Positions 7,028 to 52,665 of a DNA stretch of 54,072 nucleotides are shown one piece after another (position 1 is the stretch's first letter; each line of letters starts with the position of its first letter). The translations under genes and the position numbers were made by a program. The stretch is taken from assembly GCA_018401295.1 (NCBI GenBank), contig JAGYLJ010000004.1, positions 1-54,072 of the forward strand, given 5' to 3'. A model generated the notes under the pieces. It was not told the DNA's origin. It was given only the letters and a program-made list of their open reading frames with translations, and ran no database searches. This stretch comes from a bacterium. Its GTDB lineage: Bacteria > Patescibacteriota > Minisyncoccia > Phycocordibacterales > UBA12079.

Positions 7028-7207
7028 ATGTTTTACTTATATGTGTTACAATTATGGCAAGATTTGAAGTTTTATACATAGGTTATACCAAAAATTTAAA
7101 GTTAAGATTTGACAGAAGTAGCAAATAAAAATAAAGTAATTAAGAAAAATGTATTTAATAATTAAGTTGTTGATTAAGTAAATGCCAAATCTTATTTAAC
7201 AGGGTAA
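7028..7207 (+). pseudogene. decayed GIY-YIG nuclease gene
   Basis: MFYLYVLQLWQDLKFYT then stop/frameshift, then GYTKNLKLRFD, all matching MFYVYVLQSQQDKKFYTGYTKNLKLRFD of 11174-11428. Terminal KSYLTG-stop (7187-7207) matches its KSYLIG-stop. Confidence 0.8.
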
Positions 7208-7213
7208 ATAAAC

Positions 7214-7651
7214 ATGCAAAGAAGATATTTTATAATTATTCTTGTTTCTCTCGTTTATCTGATATTTATTTTGGATATTTTTGCTGCTCAATATTTTTTG
7301 TATTGGCGTTTTTGGTGGATGGATATGGTTATGCATTTTTTAGGTGGTCTTTGGATCGCTTTGCTATCCTATTATGTTTTCTTTTTGTCTGGGTATTTTA
7401 AGAAAATATCTGAGAGACTTTCTTTATTTTATACGTCTTTGTTTTTCTTGTTGTTCGTAGGTATTTCTTGGGAGATTTTTGAATATGTAACAAAAGTTTC
7501 TGTGGCTCAGCCAAATTATATTTTAGATACCTATTTAGATTTATTGATGGACATGATCGGTTGGTTGGTGGCTTATTTTTTCCTTTTAAGGTTCCATAGA
7601 AAAGAGCTTATGGTTGCTAAAGGTGAAAAAATTGATATTATTATAGAATAA
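7214..7651 (+). CDS. hypothetical integral membrane protein (about 4 TM)
   Basis: hydrophobic segments throughout, no recognisable motif. Confidence 0.6.
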   Translation: MQRRYFIIILVSLVYLIFILDIFAAQYFLYWRFWWMDMVMHFLGGLWIALLSYYVFFLSGYFKKISERLSLFYTSLFFLLFVGISWEIFEYVTKVSVAQPNYILDTYLDLLMDMIGWLVAYFFLLRFHRKELMVAKGEKIDIIIE

Positions 7652-7692
7652 ACGTAAATTATAAATTATTGGGTTTAGTGTTTTTATGAAAT

Positions 7693-7883
7693 GACCCATG
7701 TTAAATACCATTTGAGTTTTTAGAACTCAAATGCAAAAGATTTCAGTACTACGACTACTTTAGATTAAAGATCTTAATCTTTAGGTAAAGTCATGTTAGT
7801 GTAAGTTTAGTAGTCGGAGTACTGAAATCTTTTATTAACAGGGTAATATTTTTCTAATTCGCTTCGCTCATAAGAAAAATATT
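7693..7883 (+). promoter_or_regulatory. three-hairpin leader module shared with 40623-40735
   Basis: hairpin 7709-7733 (CATTTGAG..CTCAAATG) and long hairpin 7738-7759/7809-7830, then TTATTAACAGGGTAAT. Final hairpin 7845-7883 ends at the ATG. Confidence 0.7.
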
Positions 7884-8507
7884 ATGGATGACAAAGGAAT
7901 TTATTTAAAACCCAAACTTTGTGTTTCTGGTGCAGCTGACACAACTCATCTAACTCCCGATGCTGTTGTAAAAACAGAAATATTAGGAGAAGAAATTATT
8001 AAACAAGGTGGTATTTTGGTAACAGGGGCTACTACGGGGTTACCTCTCTGGGCGGCTAAAGGGGCTAAAAGTGTCGGAGGGATGTCCATTGGTTTTTCAC
8101 CAGCTTCCACTGAAGTTGAACATATTCATTCATATAAATTACCAACAGAACATATGGATTTAATCATCTATACTGGTTTTGGTTATCCAGGGAGAGATTT
8201 AATTTTAACTAGATCCGTTGATGCTGTCTTTATTACAGCAGGAAGAGTCGGTACAATCCATGAGTTTACCATTGCTTTCGAGGACGGTAAACCACTCGGC
8301 ATTTTGGAGGGAGATTGGGCTACTGACGAAATTATTCAGCTTATTATAGAAAAAGCCCATCGACCAAACGATAAAATTGTATTTGATTCTGATCCTAAAA
8401 GATTAGTTGAAAGAGTTTTAGAAATTGTAAAGGCAGATAAAGAGGAGGTTTATAAGAATTATAAGAAAACTATCCTAGAGGATCCTAGCGGTGGTAATAA
8501 AGAATAG
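7884..8507 (+). CDS. LOG/SLOG-type Rossmann-fold protein (TIGR00725/DprA-related-like)
   Basis: VTGATTGLPLWAAKGAKSVGGMSIGFSP and AGRVGTIHEF resemble the GGxxGxM..GA..GG..IG and PGGxGTxxE motifs of LOG-like proteins. Confidence 0.6.
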   Translation: MDDKGIYLKPKLCVSGAADTTHLTPDAVVKTEILGEEIIKQGGILVTGATTGLPLWAAKGAKSVGGMSIGFSPASTEVEHIHSYKLPTEHMDLIIYTGFGYPGRDLILTRSVDAVFITAGRVGTIHEFTIAFEDGKPLGILEGDWATDEIIQLIIEKAHRPNDKIVFDSDPKRLVERVLEIVKADKEEVYKNYKKTILEDPSGGNKE

Positions 8508-11170: not shown

Positions 11171-11172
11171 GG

Positions 11173-11465
11173 TTCACCCTATTAAATATGATTTGACTCT
11201 TTTTTTGATAAATGTTTTTCCATGGTAAGTTTTTAAGTATTTTTCTCTGTGTGTTGCATCTTGTTGATTTAAACAAGCTTCATAATAAATTAATTTCATT
11301 GGCAGTCTTTCCTTTGTTGAACAAATTTTTCCTTTATTATGGCCGTCAAATCTTAACTTTAAATTTTTAGTATAACCCGTATAAAATTTCTTATCTTGCT
11401 GTGATTGTAACACATATACGTAAAACATATCTCTATAAAAATTTAAAGTTATTTAACAGGGTAAA
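11173..11465 (-). mobile_element. GIY-YIG gene bracketed by 16-bp imperfect inverted repeats
   Basis: TTCACCCTATTAAATA (11173-11188, covers the last codons and the stop) versus TATTTAACAGGGTAAA (11450-11465): 14/16 complementary. Confidence 0.45.
11174..11428 (-). CDS. GIY-YIG nuclease family protein
   Basis: FYVYVLQS...KFYTGYTKNLKLRFDGHN...ATHREKYLK = GIY..YIG..R..H.. E/N core. Confidence 0.85.
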   Translation of the reverse strand: MFYVYVLQSQQDKKFYTGYTKNLKLRFDGHNKGKICSTKERLPMKLIYYEACLNQQDATHREKYLKTYHGKTFIKKRVKSYLIG

Positions 11466-36724: not shown

Positions 36725-36934
36725 ATGTCAGAAAATAAAAAGACTGTGGTTTCGTTTAAGGATAAAGATAAAGTTAAAGATGAGCATAAGTTTAGAGATA
36801 CGGTTATGTTAAGAGTTAGTCGTAGTTTAAGGGATGAATTAAAAAAAGAATCGGAAAGAACTTTTATAACTATGTCGCAATTAGGAGACTGGGCATTAAA
36901 AGATTATCTTGATTCAGTTAAATCTTTAGATTAG
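36725..36934 (+). CDS. ribbon-helix-helix (CopG/Arc-like) DNA-binding protein
   Basis: VMLRVSRSLRDELKKESERTFITMSQLGDWALKDYL = beta-strand plus two helices, the RHH pattern. Confidence 0.55.
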   Translation: MSENKKTVVSFKDKDKVKDEHKFRDTVMLRVSRSLRDELKKESERTFITMSQLGDWALKDYLDSVKSLD

Positions 36935-40622: not shown

Positions 40623-40735
40623 ACCCATATTAAATATCATTTGAGTTTAAAAAACTCAAATGATTCAAATTTCTACGAAATTTGATTTAACAGGGTAATA
40701 TTTTTCTAATTCGCTTTGCTCATAAGAAAAATATT
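40623..40735 (+). promoter_or_regulatory. three-hairpin leader module (second full copy)
   Basis: hairpin 40638-40662 and hairpin 40666-40684, then ATTTAACAGGGTAAT (40685-40699). Hairpin 40697-40735 ends at ATG 40736. Confidence 0.7.
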
Positions 40736-48424: not shown

Positions 48425-49267
48425 ATGAAAAAAGATAATTCAATAGTTTTATTTAATCAAAAACGAATTCGTCGTCATTGGGATGATGAAAAAGAGCTGT
48501 GGTATTTTTCGATTATTGATATTGTAGCGGTTCTGACGGAGCAGATGGATTTTCAATTAGCAAGAAATTATTGGAAAGTTCTGAAAATTCGCTTAAAAAA
48601 GGAAGGAAGTGAAGTGGTTACAAAATGTAACCGGTTGAAAATGATGGCTCAAGACGGCAAGATGAGAGAAACCGATGTTGCCGATGTGGAAACTATTCTG
48701 CGGCTCATTCAATCAGTGCCAAGCAAAAAAGCAGAACCAATTAAGCTTTGGTTAGCCAAGGTAGGATACGAAAGAGTGCAGGAAATGAGCGATCCAGAAA
48801 AAGCATTGAACAGGTCACGCGATTATTGGCAGAGAATGGGACGAAGTCAAAAATGGATTCAACAAAGAATGATGGGGCAAGAAATTAGGAATAAACTCAC
48901 GGATTATTGGAAAGATAATAAGGTGAAAGAAAAAGACGAATATGCTATTTTGACCAACATTATTCATCAAGAATGGAGCGATTTGTCAGTTAAAGAACAT
49001 AAGAGTATAAAAAATTTGAAACGGGAAAATTTGCGTGATCATATGACTGATGCGGAATTGGTCTTTACCGCTTTAGCCGAACTTTCCACCCGCCAAATCG
49101 CGGAAACCATGGAAGCTAAAGGGTTGGAAGAAAATAAAATACCGGCGAAAAAAGGTGGACGAATTGCCAAAGACGCAAGAAAAGCACTGGAAGAAAAAAC
49201 AGGCGAGTCGGTTGTAACCAAGACAAATTATTTATCAAATAAAAAATCTGTTAAAAAATTGAAATAA
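48425..49267 (+). CDS. Bro-N domain protein (phage antirepressor / DinD-like)
   Basis: IRRHWDDEKELWYFSIIDIVAVLTEQ N-terminal Bro-N-like segment, basic C-terminus. Confidence 0.55.
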   Translation: MKKDNSIVLFNQKRIRRHWDDEKELWYFSIIDIVAVLTEQMDFQLARNYWKVLKIRLKKEGSEVVTKCNRLKMMAQDGKMRETDVADVETILRLIQSVPSKKAEPIKLWLAKVGYERVQEMSDPEKALNRSRDYWQRMGRSQKWIQQRMMGQEIRNKLTDYWKDNKVKEKDEYAILTNIIHQEWSDLSVKEHKSIKNLKRENLRDHMTDAELVFTALAELSTRQIAETMEAKGLEENKIPAKKGGRIAKDARKALEEKTGESVVTKTNYLSNKKSVKKLK

Positions 49268-49373: not shown

Positions 49374-50330
49374 ATGTTAAGAAAAAAGATTGCTGTATTA
49401 AGAGGTGGTCCTAGTTCTGAATACGAAGTTTCTTTAAAGACAGGGGCTGAAATACTAAAAAACTTATCTGATGATAAGTATGATTTGTCTGATGTTTGTA
49501 TTACTCGAGATGGAGATTGGTATTTGAAGGGTATGAAAGTTCGTCCTGCTGATATCTTGCCTCAGGTTGATGCGGTTTTTAATGCTATGCATGGTGAATA
49601 TGGTGAGGACGGAAAAGTTCAAAGAATTTTAGAAACTTTTGGGGTGCCTTTTACTGGTTCTCAATCGATTCCTTCAGCTCTGGCTATGAATAAAATGTTA
49701 GCTAAACAGGAATTTAAAAAAGGAGGAATTAAAGTGCCTATTGATATTGTTTTGAAGAGGGGAGATTATAATGTTGCTGAAATATTTAGGACCTTCCCGA
49801 TTCCGGCTATTGTAAAACCTATCAGTGCCGGTTCTTCTGTGGGAATTGGGTTAGCTAGAACAGCTCTTGAATTACAACAAGCTATTGAAAATGCTTTTGA
49901 GGTTTCAGACAAGGTCTTGGTTGAAGAATTCATTGGCGGGAGAGAGGCGACTTGTGGGGTGATTGATGATTTTAGAGGGGAAAGTATTTATACTTTATTA
50001 CCGGTTGAAATCAGGCCCAAATCAGTTAATAATTTTTTTGATTATGAGGCTAAATATAGTGGGGAATCTGAGGAAATTTGTCCGGGCAATTTTACCGAAG
50101 AAGAGAAGGGCCAAATACAAGAATTAGCTAGACAAGCTCACCAATTGTTAGGTTTGCGTCATTATTCTCGTTCGGATTTTATTATTTCACCTCGTAGAGG
50201 GATTTATCTTTTGGAAACGAATTCCTTGTCTGGTTTAACAGCCAATTCTCTTTTACCGGTATCGTTGAAGGCTATCGGTTGTGATTTATCCGATTTTCTT
50301 GATCACTTGATTCAATTAACTGAAAAGTAA
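49374..50330 (+). CDS. ddl: D-alanine--D-alanine ligase
   Basis: KIAVLRGGPSSEYEVSLKTG, HGEYGEDGKVQ, ATP-grasp EEFIGGREATCGVI, ...SRSDFII...LETNSLSGLT. Confidence 0.93.
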   Translation: MLRKKIAVLRGGPSSEYEVSLKTGAEILKNLSDDKYDLSDVCITRDGDWYLKGMKVRPADILPQVDAVFNAMHGEYGEDGKVQRILETFGVPFTGSQSIPSALAMNKMLAKQEFKKGGIKVPIDIVLKRGDYNVAEIFRTFPIPAIVKPISAGSSVGIGLARTALELQQAIENAFEVSDKVLVEEFIGGREATCGVIDDFRGESIYTLLPVEIRPKSVNNFFDYEAKYSGESEEICPGNFTEEEKGQIQELARQAHQLLGLRHYSRSDFIISPRRGIYLLETNSLSGLTANSLLPVSLKAIGCDLSDFLDHLIQLTEK

Positions 50331-50386
50331 AGGGATTTATTTACTTTTTGGTGTGGTTGTGTATAATTTACCTTGTATTTAGTTTA

Positions 50387-50709
50387 GGTGAGGGGCCAGT
50401 AGCCCCTCACCCAGAACCTTTATATTATGTTCTTTGTTTATATTTTAAAAAGTAAAAAAGATAACAGTATTTATATAGGTTATACAAGTGATTTGAAAAG
50501 GCGTTTTGAAGAACATAACGGTGGAAAAAATAAGTCTACCAAATTCAAGGTTCCTTTTGAGCTCATTTATTATGAAGCTTACAGATCTGAATCTGATGCC
50601 AAATATAGGGAGTCAAATTTGAAAAGATTTGCTCAGGCATATTCTGCTCTCAAGGGTAGAATTAAAAATAGTTTGGCATCATAAAGGTTCTGGGTGAGGG
50701 GCCAGTAGC
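50387..50709 (+). mobile_element. GIY-YIG gene cassette with 21-bp perfect terminal inverted repeats and a 17-bp direct duplication of the tRNA-Ala 5' junction
   Basis: IR CCCCTCACCCAGAACCTTTAT (50403-50423) / ATAAAGGTTCTGGGTGAGGGG (50681-50701). DR GGTGAGGGGCCAGTAGC at 50387-50403 and 50693-50709. Confidence 0.6.
50427..50684 (+). CDS. GIY-YIG nuclease family protein
   Basis: FFVYILKSKKDNSIYIGYTSDLKRRFEEHN...AKYRESNLK. Confidence 0.85.
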   Translation: MFFVYILKSKKDNSIYIGYTSDLKRRFEEHNGGKNKSTKFKVPFELIYYEAYRSESDAKYRESNLKRFAQAYSALKGRIKNSLAS

Positions 50710-50771
50710 TCACCTGGTAGAGCGCCGCACTTGCACTGCGGAGGTAGCGGGTTCGAGTCCTGTCTGGTCCA
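50699..50771 (+). tRNA. tRNA-Ala (anticodon UGC), no encoded CCA
   Basis: cloverleaf folded by hand: acceptor GGGCCAG/CTGGTCC with G3:U70, D arm GCTC/GAGC, anticodon stem CCGCA/TGCGG with loop CTTGCAC, T arm GCGGG-TTCGAGT-CCTGT (two G.U), discriminator A. Confidence 0.9.
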
Positions 50772-50778
50772 CAAAAAC

Positions 50779-50816
50779 ACAAAAGAACGCGAAAGCGTTC
50801 TTTTGTTTTGTTTTTG
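50779..50816 (+). terminator. Rho-independent terminator after tRNA-Ala
   Basis: ACAAAAGAACGC-GAAA-GCGTTCTTTTGT followed by TTTGTTTTT. Confidence 0.8.
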
Positions 50817-50836
50817 TGGACCAGACAGGACTCGAA
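50817..50836 (-). repeat. perfect 20-bp inverted copy of the tRNA-Ala 3' end
   Basis: TGGACCAGACAGGACTCGAA is the reverse complement of 50752-50771. Confidence 0.9.
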
Positions 50837-50906
50837 ACGAAGGAGTATATTTTTTCATAATGTAATGGAGAAAAAATACGACTGAGCGGGGTCGAGAGTT
50901 CTTGGT

Positions 50907-50932
50907 ATTTTAGGAGCGAAGCGAACTAAAAT
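50907..50932 (+). repeat. hairpin with invariant GAGCGAAGCGAA loop (plus orientation)
   Basis: ATTTTAG-GAGCGAAGCGAA-CTAAAAT. Second plus-orientation copy ATTTT-GAGCGAAGCGAA-AAAAT at 52582-52603. Confidence 0.8.
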
Positions 50933-51033
50933 AGTTAGAACTGGTGACCGAGTCCTGAGATATGTAGAATTCTCGCTGGGGTCATTTAGTTGAAAGAGTA
51001 GAGATTTTTGGAGGAGGAGTGTAGAATTAAGAT

Positions 51034-51795
51034 ATGTTTACTCCTAAAACAAAAAGAATAGAAAAACTTGCTGAACTGTATCCTGAAATTATTTCAGATT
51101 TGGAATGTATTTTTGACAAACCAACGAACATTTATATTGATTGGCAGAACGTTATTCATTGGCAGAAAAAATTAAGGTGGAATTTTGATTTGAAAAGAAT
51201 AAAACGGTTTTTTGATTCTTTTGACAATATAAAAACAGTAAAAATATATACAGGAACATTGGAGGGGAATGACAAATCAGAACAAAATATTCCTGATTTA
51301 GAATCTTGGGGTTATGTTGTTATAACAAAGCCAGTTAAAAAGATGAAGTTATCCGTTGATACTTCCAGTGTCTCTGATAATTCCCCAACTTTGTTGCAAC
51401 AATTTATTAAAAAATCTCTGTTAGACACTTTAGATATTTCTACTATCATCTCTTTAAATAAAAAACTTTCAGAGTTAAACGAAAAAAATATTTTATTTTT
51501 AACAGAAGAAAAGTGTAATTTTGATGTTGAAATGGGGAGGGATCTGCTAAAAGATTTTGAGTTTAATGGGATAGAGAATTTTATTTTGTGGACGACTGAC
51601 AGTGATTTTGAAGACCCGATAAAACAAATTAGAGATGATGGTAAAAAAGCGATTATTTTTGCTTTCTCAGGTAAAGTTGCACCTGAATTAGATGGCACTG
51701 GAGTTTATGTTTTTGATATAAAGAAAATAAAAGAATTTGTGTGTTGGTCTAAGCATTTACCAAAGGATATAAAGGATAGAGTTGATGAGGTATAA
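51034..51795 (+). CDS. NYN/LabA-like (PIN-fold) domain protein
   Basis: NIYIDWQNV... and ILWTTDSDFEDPIKQIRDDGKKAIIF match the D.N ... SgDsDF.p....r..Gk.v pattern of NYN domains. Confidence 0.55.
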   Translation: MFTPKTKRIEKLAELYPEIISDLECIFDKPTNIYIDWQNVIHWQKKLRWNFDLKRIKRFFDSFDNIKTVKIYTGTLEGNDKSEQNIPDLESWGYVVITKPVKKMKLSVDTSSVSDNSPTLLQQFIKKSLLDTLDISTIISLNKKLSELNEKNILFLTEEKCNFDVEMGRDLLKDFEFNGIENFILWTTDSDFEDPIKQIRDDGKKAIIFAFSGKVAPELDGTGVYVFDIKKIKEFVCWSKHLPKDIKDRVDEV

Positions 51796-52504: not shown

Positions 52505-52665
52505 CATCTGTCAGGACTCGAACGGTGATAGTAAACAGTCCTGTGGACTGTTTACGAGCCGCGACCAGCAGTACTTAGTAGATTTTGAGCGAAGCGAAAA
52601 AATATACTTAGTAACTGCGGGTCGAGTCCTGTGATTTTGTAGGACCAGACAGGAATCGAATATCC
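52505..52665. repeat. cluster of tRNA-Ala T-arm/3'-end-derived fragments in both orientations plus a GAGCGAAGCGAA hairpin
   Basis: CAGGACTCGAAC (52512-23, minus sense). GCGGGTCGAGTCCTGT (52617-32, plus sense, 16 of 17 versus tRNA 50747-63). AGGACCAGACAGGAATCGAA (52641-60, minus sense). Confidence 0.75.

What the first reader, a model, noticed from the sequence alone, without database searches (positions are those of the whole stretch)
50387..50709. GIY-YIG gene inserted at the 5' edge of tRNA-Ala with 21-bp perfect inverted repeats and a 17-bp target-like duplication
CCCCTCACCCAGAACCTTTAT (50403-50423) and its exact reverse complement (50681-50701) bracket the 85-aa GIY-YIG ORF; the downstream arm contains the stop codon. 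Outside them, GGTGAGGGGCCAGTAGC occurs twice in direct orientation (50387-50403 and 50693-50709). The second copy includes the first 11 nt of the tRNA. Small GIY-YIG genes of this type (the class sharing the UvrC/Slx1-type N-terminal domain) are usually annotated as static genes. TIR plus DR architecture suggests a minimal mobile cassette, or a long-range RNA/DNA stem that loops the ORF out. The upstream copy also forms a local 9-bp hairpin (GGTGAGGGG-CCAGTAG-CCCCTCACC).
Basis: seen in the sequence. Interest (0 to 1): 0.62.

Follow-up and report, generated by a model that had tools for sequence, protein, structure and literature searches.

The report
Tiny GIY-YIG mobile element in tRNA-Ala
A 306-bp piece of selfish DNA, whose only gene is an 85-residue nuclease enclosed by a 22-bp inverted repeat, has landed in the first bases of a tRNA-Ala gene and rebuilt that gene. 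It belongs to a widespread family of very small mobile elements in ultra-small (Patescibacteria) bacteria, for which I found no published description.

Summary
The interpretation as a minimal mobile cassette is supported.

- **Insertion.** Two species of the same genus have the same ddl-promoter-tRNA-Ala locus without the 306-bp unit, each with a single copy of the duplicated tRNA 5' end.
- **Family.** Close protein relatives lie 13-17 nt upstream of tRNA-Ala, -Val and -Ser genes, and 5 nt before one tRNA-Ile. All share one plan: a copy of tRNA nt 1-11, CCCCTCAC, a variable arm, the ORF, the complementary arm, GTGAG, then the intact tRNA.
- **Other states.** I found tandem copies, ORF-less mini copies, pseudogenes and solo-end footprints. 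The type is patchy, occurring in 7 of 151 genomes of the order.
- **Stem.** It is about 20 bp and covaries strongly. Its mismatches show no RNA-type G:U bias.
- **Protein.** It has a bare GIY-YIG fold, closest to UPF0213 and Slx1. It is under strong purifying selection (dN/dS about 0.07-0.11).
- **Second element.** The window holds a second element type at 11171-11464. It has an empty site in a congener and at least six ~140-bp MITE copies in this genome.

That the element was mobile is well supported. That its own nuclease moves it, probably on hairpin-folded single-stranded ends like the Ssn nucleases, is inferred and untested.

The parts
50340..50367 (+). Promoter-like site TTTACT-16 nt-TATAAT. 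It is the resident tRNA-Ala promoter, now also upstream of the nuclease ORF.
   Evidence: One search gives a 10 of 12 match. The same TTTACT...TGTGTATAAT box precedes the tRNA directly in the empty sites of G001 and G002, and precedes the element in G005, L119 and L120.
50387..50403 (+). Left direct repeat. It consists of GGTGAG plus a displaced copy of tRNA-Ala nt 1-11 (50393-50403).
   Evidence: The distance from the -10 box equals that of the real tRNA start in empty sites. This suggests it is the original 5' end of the tRNA gene.
50387..50411 (+). Local 10-bp hairpin, GGTGAGGGGC-CAGTA-GCCCCTCACC.
   Evidence: I6.
50402..50423 (+). Left arm of the 22-bp perfect inverted repeat. The outer 9 nt (GCCCCTCAC) are conserved across the clade and the inner part is variable.
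50427..50684 (+). ORF of 85 aa encoding a single-domain GIY-YIG nuclease.
   Evidence: Pfam PF01541 matches at E 2.6e-18. The AlphaFold2 model has pLDDT 92.3, and its best fold matches are UPF0213 BH0048, Slx1, I-TevI and UvrC. Y5, Y16, G18, R26, E50 and E62 are invariant in 53 relatives. dN/dS is 0.07-0.11.
50681..50702 (+). Right arm of the inverted repeat. It holds the stop codon, the conserved GGTGAG, and tRNA nt 1-4.
50693..50709 (+). Right direct repeat. It consists of GGTGAG plus nt 1-11 of the functional tRNA.
50404..50709 (+). The 306-bp inserted unit relative to empty sites. The register is arbitrary within the direct repeat.
   Evidence: The start-to-start spacing of the DR is 306 nt. 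G001 reads ...AAGGTGAG|GGGCCAGTAGCTCACC with one copy only.
50699..50772 (+). Intact tRNA-Ala(UGC), rebuilt downstream of the element.
50779..50806 (+). Terminator-like hairpin after the tRNA, embedded in a longer 36-nt inverted repeat (50752-50787 / 50801-50836).
   Evidence: I1.
11171..11464 (-). Second, different GIY-YIG mini-element in the same window. Its ends are TTTACCCTGTTAAATA / TATTTAATAGGGTGAA, and it sits between a -10 box and the ATG of the next gene.
   Evidence: The site is empty in G003 (TGTGTTATAAT|ATTTTATT|ATG). It is filled in G001 and G002. G000 holds at least six ~140-bp ORF-less copies with the same ends, plus longer (~200-bp) and 61-bp derivatives.

Best explanation
The 306-bp unit is a member of a family of very small IS-like selfish elements of Patescibacteria. 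Each element is one gene for a bare GIY-YIG nuclease, enclosed by a ~20-bp hairpin-forming inverted repeat.

Shown by comparison:
- This copy inserted into the first bases of the tRNA-Ala gene.
- The original 5' end (nt 1-11) was left behind upstream.
- An intact tRNA starts exactly after the element's right end, GGTGAG.
- The element has no promoter-like site of its own and lies downstream of the tRNA promoter, so the ORF is probably transcribed with the tRNA.

Inferred from the Ssn precedent and from the absence of any other linked enzyme:
- The nuclease recognises the element's ends when they fold as single-stranded DNA.
- It cuts beside them, or cuts a similar GGGC-N5-GC target.
- Host replication and repair functions complete excision, copying or insertion.

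The 20-bp stem may also insulate the insert at the RNA level.
For: - Empty and filled alleles: G001 and G002 (same genus) lack the unit at the orthologous locus. G005 (another genus) and the metagenome contigs L119 and L120 carry it.
- Architecture: 16 distinct loci of the clade show the same plan, next to tRNA-Ala (UGC, GGC), tRNA-Val (CAC, GAC) and tRNA-Ile (UAU). tRNA-Val(UAC) and tRNA-Ser loci seen share it. The duplicated 11 nt always match the local tRNA.
- Tree: the protein tree puts these in one clade (support 100/96) with the tRNA types interspersed.
- Other states: tandem identical copies (L043); full plus ORF-less mini copies in tandem, each followed by the same 11-mer (L120, L230; in L234 a mini copy follows a GIY-YIG ORF whose right end differs); pseudogenes (L229, L232); solo right-end footprints (L235, G001, G004).
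- Distribution: the right-junction pattern occurs in 7 of 151 genomes of the order, against 0 for the control pattern.
- Second site in this genome: a 132-bp ORF-less copy, whose arms share their first 15 nt with this element, sits in P12 of the RNase P RNA gene. G003 and G004 lack it there.
- Stem: pairing holds to position 20 and then collapses. Positions 10-20 show 3-5 Watson-Crick pair types. Pairing is 0.82 within loci and 0.50 between arms of different loci. Mismatches are 21 G:T against 22 A:C, so there is no sense-strand wobble bias.
- ORF selection: dN/dS is 0.07-0.11, while some copies elsewhere are pseudogenes.
- Other transposases: G000 has no rve or DDE_Tnp_1 match. Its single Y1 transposase carries its own, different palindromes.
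- Precedent: Ssn enzymes are 94-aa single-domain GIY-YIG nucleases. They bind a hairpin repeat only as ssDNA and cut a few nt upstream, and their genes are flanked by such repeats (PMC11893778).
Against: - No activity, excision product or recent transposition of this copy was seen. The type is single-copy with an ORF in this genome.
- The orthologous copies are old (dS 0.7-1.0). The locus history is therefore also compatible with one ancient insertion followed by vertical descent and losses.
- GIY-YIG nucleases hydrolyse DNA and are not known to perform strand transfer, so a complete transposition chemistry is missing.
- The duplication is not a fixed-length TSD. It is 11 nt in this clade, 9 and 7 nt in the sister clade, and absent at the RNase P RNA sites examined.
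- An earlier check within this scan priced 'its own enzyme cuts tRNA genes' at only 14/100.
- The 20-bp stem length also suits an RNase III substrate.
Confidence: 0.6

Rival explanations
1. Free-standing homing endonuclease gene, like the phage T4 Seg genes. The nuclease cuts unoccupied tRNA alleles, and the gene is copied in by double-strand-break repair. The inverted and direct repeats would be by-products carried along with it.
For: - GIY-YIG is a classical homing endonuclease fold. T4 SegB lies in a tRNA gene cluster and cuts tRNA genes of related phages (PMC2330249).
- The targets are among the most conserved genes.
- The same site is occupied in different genera.
- The ORF is less diverged at synonymous sites (pS 0.46-0.54) than the neighbouring ddl (0.67-0.75), which hints at exchange between lineages.
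Against: - The protein has no DNA-binding domain. It is 85 aa and consists of the catalytic domain only.
- Homing does not create a duplication that matches each new target, yet the 11-mer always equals the local tRNA.
- ORF-less mini copies with the same ends occur at unrelated loci, and tandem insertions exist. Both are typical of transposons and MITEs, not of homing.
Confidence: 0.15
2. A resident, no longer mobile nuclease gene co-transcribed with the tRNA. The 20-22-bp inverted repeat would work at the RNA level, as a processing stem (for RNase III) or an insulating stem. That stem would release the mRNA and let the tRNA, RNase P RNA or rRNA fold around the insert.
For: - The ORF lies between the tRNA promoter and the tRNA.
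- The stem closes exactly around the ORF. Its length is sharply about 20 bp, or two helical turns, in 16 loci.
- The predicted RNA fold forms the long stem (z = -7.9).
- Relatives sit at helix tips of RNase P RNA. GIY-YIG ORFs in non-intron insertions of CPR rRNA genes are reported in PMC11270868.
- Strong purifying selection over a long vertical history fits a useful gene.
Against: - Stem mismatches are 21 G:T against 22 A:C. An RNA stem should tolerate G:U and not A:C.
- Pseudogenised and deleted copies in other lineages argue against a host function.
- Multi-copy ORF-less derivatives show that the ends behave as mobile DNA termini.
- This reading does not explain the duplicated tRNA 5' end.
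- It is compatible with a mobile origin, so it is a rival only for the present-day role.
Confidence: 0.15
3. The inverted-repeat unit is mobilised by some other enzyme, such as a RAYT-like Y1 transposase or an integrase encoded elsewhere. The GIY-YIG gene would be cargo.
For: - G000 encodes one Y1_Tnp protein at C12:26534-27256.
- REPINs moved by RAYTs are also hairpin-forming inverted doublets (established knowledge, cited in PMC11893778).
- The genome is only 77% complete.
Against: - The Y1 gene is flanked by its own, different palindromes, TTTGGTAATCGGATTACCAAA.
- No rve or DDE_Tnp_1 match was found.
- Across 160 loci from many lineages, the only gene constantly enclosed by these ends is the GIY-YIG ORF.
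Confidence: 0.07

Closest known systems
Ssn nucleases with their NTS/SRM hairpin repeats (Chenal et al., Nat Commun 2025, PMC11893778)
   Same: - Both are single-domain GIY-YIG proteins of about 90 aa. The catalytic Tyr, Tyr and Glu spacing is similar: Y6, Y17, E64 in SsnA against Y5, Y16, E62 here.
- In both, the gene is flanked on both sides by hairpin-forming repeats.
- The authors themselves note that the layout looks like an insertion sequence.
- Site-specific ssDNA cutting next to a hairpin gives a plausible activity for this protein.
   Different: - The SRM motif of that paper has 0 matches in this genome.
- Here the two arms pair with each other across the ORF (20-bp stem, 257-nt loop) instead of each being a local hairpin.
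- Insertion into tRNA and RNase P RNA genes, rebuilding of the tRNA 5' end, and Patescibacteria are not mentioned in the paper.
- Membership in cd10448 could not be tested. The nearest solved relatives are UPF0213 proteins.
Free-standing GIY-YIG homing endonuclease genes of phage T4 (Seg family; SegB in the tRNA gene cluster, PMC2330249)
   Same: Both are selfish GIY-YIG genes associated with tRNA genes, and both are present or absent between relatives.
   Different: - Seg proteins carry a DNA-binding domain.
- Seg genes have no terminal inverted repeats, no target duplication and no ORF-less derivatives.
- Here the insert lies inside the tRNA gene, which is rebuilt.
Bacterial insertion sequences with their MITE derivatives, and REP/REPIN-RAYT systems
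   Same: - All have terminal inverted repeats and short direct repeats at the insertion.
- All show autonomous copies together with ORF-less miniature copies that share the same ends.
- All have a patchy distribution and a cycle of decay.
   Different: - At about 0.3 kb the unit is far smaller than known autonomous IS elements.
- It encodes no DDE, HUH, serine or tyrosine recombinase.
- Only the outer 9 nt of the repeat are conserved, while the inner part merely stays complementary.
- The duplication length varies with the kind of target.
Integron attC sites and IS200/IS605 ends (recombination sites recognised as folded single strands)
   Same: A conserved outer motif is combined with a variable but complementary inner stem. 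Structure appears to matter more than sequence.
   Different: Those sites are short local hairpins acted on by a tyrosine recombinase or an HUH transposase. Here the stem encloses the whole gene, and the only enzyme is a hydrolytic nuclease.
Intervening sequences (IVS) and GIY-YIG-encoding non-intron insertions in CPR rRNA genes (Tsurumaki et al., J Bacteriol 2024, PMC11270868)
   Same: Both are insertions at helix tips of stable-RNA genes in CPR bacteria, and some of them encode GIY-YIG proteins. They are probably the same element family in another host gene.
   Different: That paper records them only in rRNA genes. [quoted passage not shown]

Membership tests
GIY-YIG nuclease superfamily | Match to the GIY-YIG catalytic domain profile above the curated threshold | tested here: met
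   PF01541 scores 66.5 bits against a cut-off of 22.6 (E 2.6e-18), covering residues 1-67.
GIY-YIG nuclease superfamily | GIY-YIG fold with the conserved Tyr, Tyr, Arg and Glu catalytic residues | tested here: met
   The AlphaFold2 model has pLDDT 92.3. Foldseek returns UPF0213 BH0048, Slx1 (TM 0.63-0.68), I-TevI and UvrC. Y5, Y16, G18, R26, E50 and E62 are invariant in 53 relatives.
Ssn family (cd10448) with SRM repeats | Assignment of the protein to CDD cd10448, or clustering with characterised SsnA proteins | not testable with these tools
   No CDD library and no SsnA sequence were available, and the paper's supplements are not held. NCBIfam gives no family above cut-off. The nearest solved sequences are UPF0213 proteins.
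Ssn family (cd10448) with SRM repeats | Gene flanked by SRM hairpin motifs (HGTCWY...RNCYNB) | tested here: not met
   The published degenerate pattern has 0 matches in the whole 619-kb genome. The flanking repeats here are a different sequence family.
Ssn family (cd10448) with SRM repeats | Site-specific cleavage of ssDNA only, next to the hairpin | not testable with these tools
   This needs biochemistry.
Transposable element of the IS/MITE kind | Presence/absence polymorphism at orthologous sites with a clean empty site | tested here: met
   G001 and G002 are empty, and G000, G005, L119 and L120 are filled. For the second element, G003 is empty.
Transposable element of the IS/MITE kind | Terminal inverted repeats shared by autonomous and ORF-less copies at different loci | tested here: met
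   Type A is seen at the tRNA-Ala element, the RNase P P12 mini copy, and the L120 and L230 minis. Type C has 2 full copies, 1 pseudogene and at least six ~140-bp MITEs in G000.
Transposable element of the IS/MITE kind | Target-site duplication of constant length | tested here: inconclusive
   The duplication is 11 nt (tRNA nt 1-11; 10 or 12 in two further loci) in the type-A loci. It is 9 and 7 nt in the sister clade. None is seen at the RNase P RNA sites examined or at the type-C sites.
Transposable element of the IS/MITE kind | An element-encoded enzyme that carries out transposition | not testable with these tools
   The only ORF is a hydrolytic nuclease. No known transposase domain was found.
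Homing endonuclease gene | Nuclease with a sequence-specific DNA-binding module that cuts the empty allele | tested here: not met
   The protein is 85 aa and the catalytic domain takes up residues 1-67 of it, so there is no extra domain. Cleavage itself was not testable.
Group I/II or archaeal-type tRNA intron | Ribozyme or splicing motif, and a tRNA interrupted so that splicing is needed | tested here: not met
   Rfam finds only the tRNA in 50300-51100. The downstream tRNA is complete without splicing.

The most novel reading that the evidence does not exclude
These units are an undescribed class of autonomous prokaryotic transposon, about 0.29-0.31 kb long.
- The sole protein, a single-domain GIY-YIG nuclease of the UPF0213/Slx1/Ssn type, would be the mobility enzyme.
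- It would act on the element's ends and on GGGC-N5-GC-like targets as folded single-stranded DNA in highly transcribed stable-RNA genes.
- The element's terminal bases would rebuild the 5' end of the tRNA it interrupts.

This would be the smallest self-contained mobile DNA that I know of.
Probability: 0.4. Interest if true: 0.85.

Novelty: new variant of a known kind. Interest (0 to 1): 0.62.

Why it matters
- **A new mobility logic.** If the nuclease moves its own 0.3-kb element, this sets a new lower size limit for autonomous mobile DNA. It would also be a mobility mechanism that needs no recombinase, only a hydrolytic nuclease, a hairpin and host repair.
- **Biology of the Ssn-like nucleases.** It would give a biological context to the recently discovered ssDNA-specific Ssn-like nucleases.
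- **Annotation.** It would explain why small 'GIY-YIG nuclease family protein' genes are so numerous in Patescibacteria. It would also explain why tRNA, RNase P RNA and rRNA genes in these genomes are often interrupted and missed by annotation. In this genome the RNase P RNA scores below the Rfam threshold.
- **Genome evolution.** It shows how an insertion inside an essential tRNA gene can be made harmless by rebuilding the gene's 5' end.
- **Tools.** Enzyme and hairpin pairs of this kind are candidate tools for programmable ssDNA cutting.

Tried and rejected
- **Sequencing runs.** I could therefore make no read-level test for excision joints, population heterogeneity or RNA ends.
- **Alignment query.** The search for related loci with an alignment of all genome copies failed because no stretch was conserved enough. 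I used the single protein instead.
- **NCBIfam.** No family scored above cut-off, only weak GIY-YIG-containing models.
- **Rfam on 50300-51100.** Only the tRNA was found. The microRNA-like hits are the long hairpin after the tRNA and lie far below their thresholds.
- **SRM motif.** The published Ssn motif has no match in the genome, so I rejected direct membership in the Ssn/SRM repeat family.
- **RNA-stem test.** I compared G:T with A:C mismatches in 93 distinct stems and found 21 against 22. The RNA-only reading was marked down but not excluded.
- **tRNA intron or split tRNA.** Rejected, because the downstream tRNA is complete.
- **Upstream hairpin as the ddl terminator.** Rejected. It lies downstream of the tRNA promoter and has no T-run.
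- **P12 mini copy as a recent product of this element.** Rejected. G001 and G002 share the mini copy but lack the tRNA-Ala element.
- **Fixed 17-bp TSD.** Rejected, since the family constant is 11 nt.
- **Not done.** A 150-genome order survey used only the exact right-junction pattern. A profile-based census was not made.
Full report
**1. Observation**

- The 21-mer CCCCTCACCCAGAACCTTTAT (50403-50423) has its exact reverse complement at 50681-50701. No other match with up to 3 mismatches exists in the window, and shuffles give an expectation of 0.00. One further G:C pair makes the perfect stem 22 bp (50402-50423 / 50681-50702).
- The 17-mer GGTGAGGGGCCAGTAGC is repeated directly at 50387-50403 and 50693-50709, 306 nt apart.
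- tRNA-Ala(UGC) is 50699-50772. The right copy therefore consists of six leader bases plus tRNA nt 1-11.
- The 85-codon ORF 50427-50684 is a GIY-YIG domain protein (PF01541, E 2.6e-18). Its stop codon lies in the right arm.
- The left copy forms a 10-bp local hairpin.

**2. It is an insertion**

The genome is a 619-kb, 34% G+C Patescibacteria assembly. Its closest named relatives are Candidatus Niyogibacteria.

In two species of the same genus the tRNA follows its promoter directly after ddl:
- G001: ...TGTGTATAATTTAGATCACAAAATTAAGGTGAG|GGGCCAGTAGCTCACC
- G002...TGTGTATAATTTAAACTTGTTGAAGTATAG|GGGCCAGTAGCTCATC

The window has the same promoter (TTTACT-16-TATAAT, 50340-50367). It is followed at the same distance by the left copy of tRNA nt 1-11, then the 306-bp unit, then the rest of the tRNA. 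The left copy is therefore the original 5' end of the gene, and the tRNA has been rebuilt downstream of the insert.

Other states at the same locus:
- G005 (another genus) and two metagenome contigs of close relatives (L119 at 89% and L120 at 88% protein identity) carry the same element at the same locus. They show compensated changes in the arms, for example CACT.../...AGTG.
- G004 keeps only a small hairpin remnant plus AAGTGAG in front of the tRNA.

**3. It belongs to a large family with one body plan**

Searches with the protein gave 160 loci, from species genomes and metagenomes.
- In 113 of 155 ORFs an inverted repeat of score at least 12 brackets the ORF. Its left arm ends a median of 6 nt before the start codon, and its right arm begins at the stop codon.
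- The outer motif is conserved: (A/G)CCCC(C/T)(A/C)CAC on the left and its complement on the right. The inner part differs from locus to locus but stays complementary.

Within the window element's own clade there are 16 distinct loci.
- Pairing holds through position 20 (12-16 of 16 loci paired at each position) and drops to 4 of 16 at position 21.
- Positions 10-20 each show 3-5 different Watson-Crick pair types.
- Arms of the same locus pair at 0.82 in the inner part. Arms taken from different loci pair at 0.50, with a maximum of 0.66 in 1000 shuffles.

That clade has support 100/96 in the protein tree and is linked to tRNA genes throughout: Ala-UGC, Ala-GGC, Val-CAC, Val-GAC and Ile-UAU. 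A Val-UAC locus and a Ser-GCU locus seen show the same plan, the latter in a sister clade. The tRNA types are interspersed in the tree.

In the type-A loci the duplicated segment is tRNA nt 1-11, or 10 or 12 nt in two further loci. It always has the sequence of the local tRNA, for example GGGTGATTAGC, GGGCGGTTAGC or GGGCGCGTAGC. The junctions are TAGC|CCCTCAC and GTGAG|GGG. In the sister clade the duplication is 9 or 7 nt.

The extra GGTGAG in the window's left copy is not part of the constant duplication. L119, the closest relative, has the native leader TTTGTTTT there.

There is also an equivalent way to read the junctions. The element can be taken as the full 22-bp repeat, GCCCC...GGGGC. 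Its last four bases then serve as tRNA nt 1-4, and only about 5 bp (CAGTA) is duplicated. The sequence alone cannot decide between these two registers.

**4. Signs of a selfish life cycle**
- Two identical elements lie in tandem before a tRNA-Val (L043). In L120 and L230 a full element is followed by an ORF-less mini element, each followed by the same 11-mer; in L234 a mini copy follows a GIY-YIG ORF with a different right end.
- Pseudogenised copies occur in L229 and L232. Solo right ends lie in front of the tRNA in L235, G001 and G004.
- The exact right-junction pattern occurs in only 7 of 151 genomes of the order, which is 7 of 132 genera. The reversed control pattern has none.
- Other hosts of the family are helix tips P3 and P12 of the RNase P RNA gene, recognised by the flanks GAGGAAAGTCCG and GTGCCACAGAAA...TAAGGGTGAAA.
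- In this genome a 132-bp ORF-less copy sits in P12 of RNase P RNA. Its arms share their first 15 nt with the tRNA-Ala element (CCCCTCACCCAGAAC). G003 and G004 have an 18-nt native hairpin at that position, and G001 and G002 share the insert.

**5. The other GIY-YIG copies in the genome**

There are six intact copies and one pseudogene.
- Three intact copies lie directly upstream of a tRNA on the same strand: Ala in the window, Gln on C12, and Asn on C1. In the Gln and Asn cases the upstream copy of the tRNA 5' part reaches nt 22-27 and is interrupted in the D-loop by a G+C-rich hairpin. No long inverted repeat is seen there.
- Two intact copies and the pseudogene belong to a different type, with ends TT(T/A)ACCCTGTTAAATAA / TTATTTAACAGGGT(G/A)AA.
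- One of these lies in the window at 11171-11464 on the minus strand, between a -10 box and the ATG of the next gene. G003 has the empty site (TGTGTTATAAT|ATTTTATT|ATG). G001 has the element, and G002 has a copy with an internal deletion.
- At least six ~140-bp ORF-less copies with these ends lie at unrelated places in this genome, along with longer and shorter derivatives, and many more lie in G002. This second type has therefore clearly transposed.

**6. The protein**
- The AlphaFold2 model (pLDDT 92.3) has the beta-beta-alpha-beta-alpha core of GIY-YIG nucleases. It matches UPF0213 BH0048, the nuclease domain of Slx1, I-TevI and UvrC. The sequence profile gives the same order.
- There is no additional domain.
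- Y5, Y16, G18, R26, E50 and E62 are invariant in 53 relatives.
- Against the copies at the orthologous site, dN/dS is 0.07-0.11, with dS of 0.7-1.0. The gene has therefore been kept functional for a long time.
- Its synonymous divergence (pS 0.46-0.54) is lower than that of the adjacent ddl 3' part for the same pairs (0.67-0.75). This is a hint, not proof, of exchange between lineages.

**7. RNA stem or DNA ends?**

The transcript is predicted to form the long stem (z = -7.9). In that fold the upstream copy of the acceptor 5' strand pairs with the tRNA 3' strand. A sharp 20-bp length would also suit RNase III. Three observations point instead to a DNA-level role for the arms:
- In 93 distinct stems the transition-type mismatches are 21 G:T and 22 A:C. 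An RNA helix on the sense strand should keep G:U and purge A:C.
- ORF-less copies keep the arms and are found at other loci.
- Pseudogenes exist.

The two roles do not exclude each other. A stem that closes the insert would also make it harmless inside RNase P RNA or rRNA.

**8. Who moves it?**
- G000 has no match to rve or DDE_Tnp_1. Its single Y1 (IS200/RAYT-like) gene is flanked by its own palindromes, TTTGGTAATCGGATTACCAAA, which are unrelated to the element ends.
- The only gene constantly enclosed by these ends is the GIY-YIG ORF.
- The one characterised group of bare GIY-YIG proteins is the Ssn family. These enzymes bind a hairpin repeat only as ssDNA and cut a few nucleotides upstream. 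Their genes are flanked by such repeats, which the authors compare to an IS (PMC11893778).
- From this I infer, without proof, that the nuclease acts on the folded ends and on a similar target. In tRNAs the first 13 nt, GGGC-N5-GCTC, can themselves form a small hairpin. Host functions would do the joining.
- Insertion downstream of strong promoters may reflect exposed single strands, the need to borrow a promoter, or both.
- The published SRM motif is absent from this genome. The repeat family is therefore different, and membership in cd10448 could not be tested.

**9. Literature and earlier notes**
- Full-text searches found no description of tRNA-targeting GIY-YIG mini elements.
- Tsurumaki et al. 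2024 record GIY-YIG ORFs in non-intron insertions of CPR rRNA genes, without a mobility model.
- Earlier agents of this scan reached similar readings on other genomes. A later check rated the 'own enzyme' step at 14/100. I treated these notes as leads only.
  - the empty, footprint and remnant series at this locus;
  - the G:T against A:C test;
  - the 20-bp stem statistics;
  - the dN/dS and flank comparison;
  - the order-wide census with decay states;
  - the transposase check;
  - the second element with its empty site and MITEs.

**10. Verdict**

I put the probability that the unit is, or was, mobile DNA at about 0.85. I put the probability that its own nuclease is the mobility enzyme at about 0.45. 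The combined statement is given 0.6.

Noticed in passing
window 11171-11464 (-): A second GIY-YIG mini-element of another type sits between a -10 box and the start codon of the next gene. Its ends are TTTACCCTGTTAAATA / TATTTAATAGGGTGAA and its ORF is about 84 aa. The site is empty in congener G003. G000 has at least six ~140-bp ORF-less copies with these ends, and G002 has many more. Solo ends occur in the window at 7192-7205 and 40683-40696.
   Followed up: yes
window 50752-50836: The last 36 nt of tRNA-Ala plus its trailer (50752-50787) have a 92% inverted copy at 50801-50836, around a terminator-like hairpin (50779-50806). The same arrangement, more decayed, is present in G002 and L119. 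It is therefore independent of the GIY-YIG insert.
   Followed up: partly
window 50837-50975 and 52570-52635: A repeat of about 120-140 nt (…GGGGTCGAGAG…TTTTAGGAGCGAAGCG…GTGACCGAGTCCTG) ends with a partial copy of the tRNA T-arm. G000 has at least 9 relatives. Most lie just after tRNA genes (Val, Tyr, Phe, Arg), and one lies after the GIY-YIG gene on C3.
   Followed up: partly
G000:C2 about 7240-8100 (-) (L217 1740-2600): The RNase P RNA gene is stretched to about 850 nt by four insertions. Three are copies of a ~95-140-nt repeat that is highly multi-copy in all five relatives checked. The fourth is the 132-bp mini copy of the tRNA-Ala-type element, in P12. Rfam scores the gene at only 49.6 bits against a gathering threshold of 100, so standard annotation would miss it.
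   Followed up: partly
G000:C12:67103-67500 (-) and G000:C1:84467-84860 (-): Two further GIY-YIG genes lie directly upstream of tRNA-Gln and tRNA-Asn. In each, a copy of the tRNA 5' part (to about nt 22-27) lies upstream of the ORF and is interrupted in the D-loop by a G+C-rich hairpin of 16-29 nt. No long inverted repeat is seen. The tRNA-Glu loci L117 and L098 look the same.
   Followed up: partly
G000:C12:26534-27256 (+): A Y1 (IS200/RAYT-like) transposase homologue with an HUH-like NHYHF motif. It is flanked on both sides by perfect palindromes TTTGGTAATCGGATTACCAAA, which suggests a separate REP/RAYT-like system.
   Followed up: partly
G000:C1:2285-2643 (+): ARAGORN calls four head-to-tail, slightly overlapping 'tRNA-Ser(ACT)' genes of 92 nt with an 89-nt period, directly after a tRNA-Thr. 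This is an odd tandem array of tRNA-like units.
   Followed up: no
G000:C24:35436-35496 and 36782-36842: Two 61-bp palindromic mini units have ends like the second element type (CACCCTGTTAAATC...GTATTTAACAGGGC). Each is flanked by partial copies of the T-arm region of the nearby tRNA-Ile(UAU).
   Followed up: no
window 48425-49267 (+) and 51034-51795 (+): The neighbours of the locus are a Bro-N domain protein (weak, 24.7 bits against a 25.6 cut-off) and a NYN-domain (RNase-like) protein. Neither has an evident link to the element.
   Followed up: no
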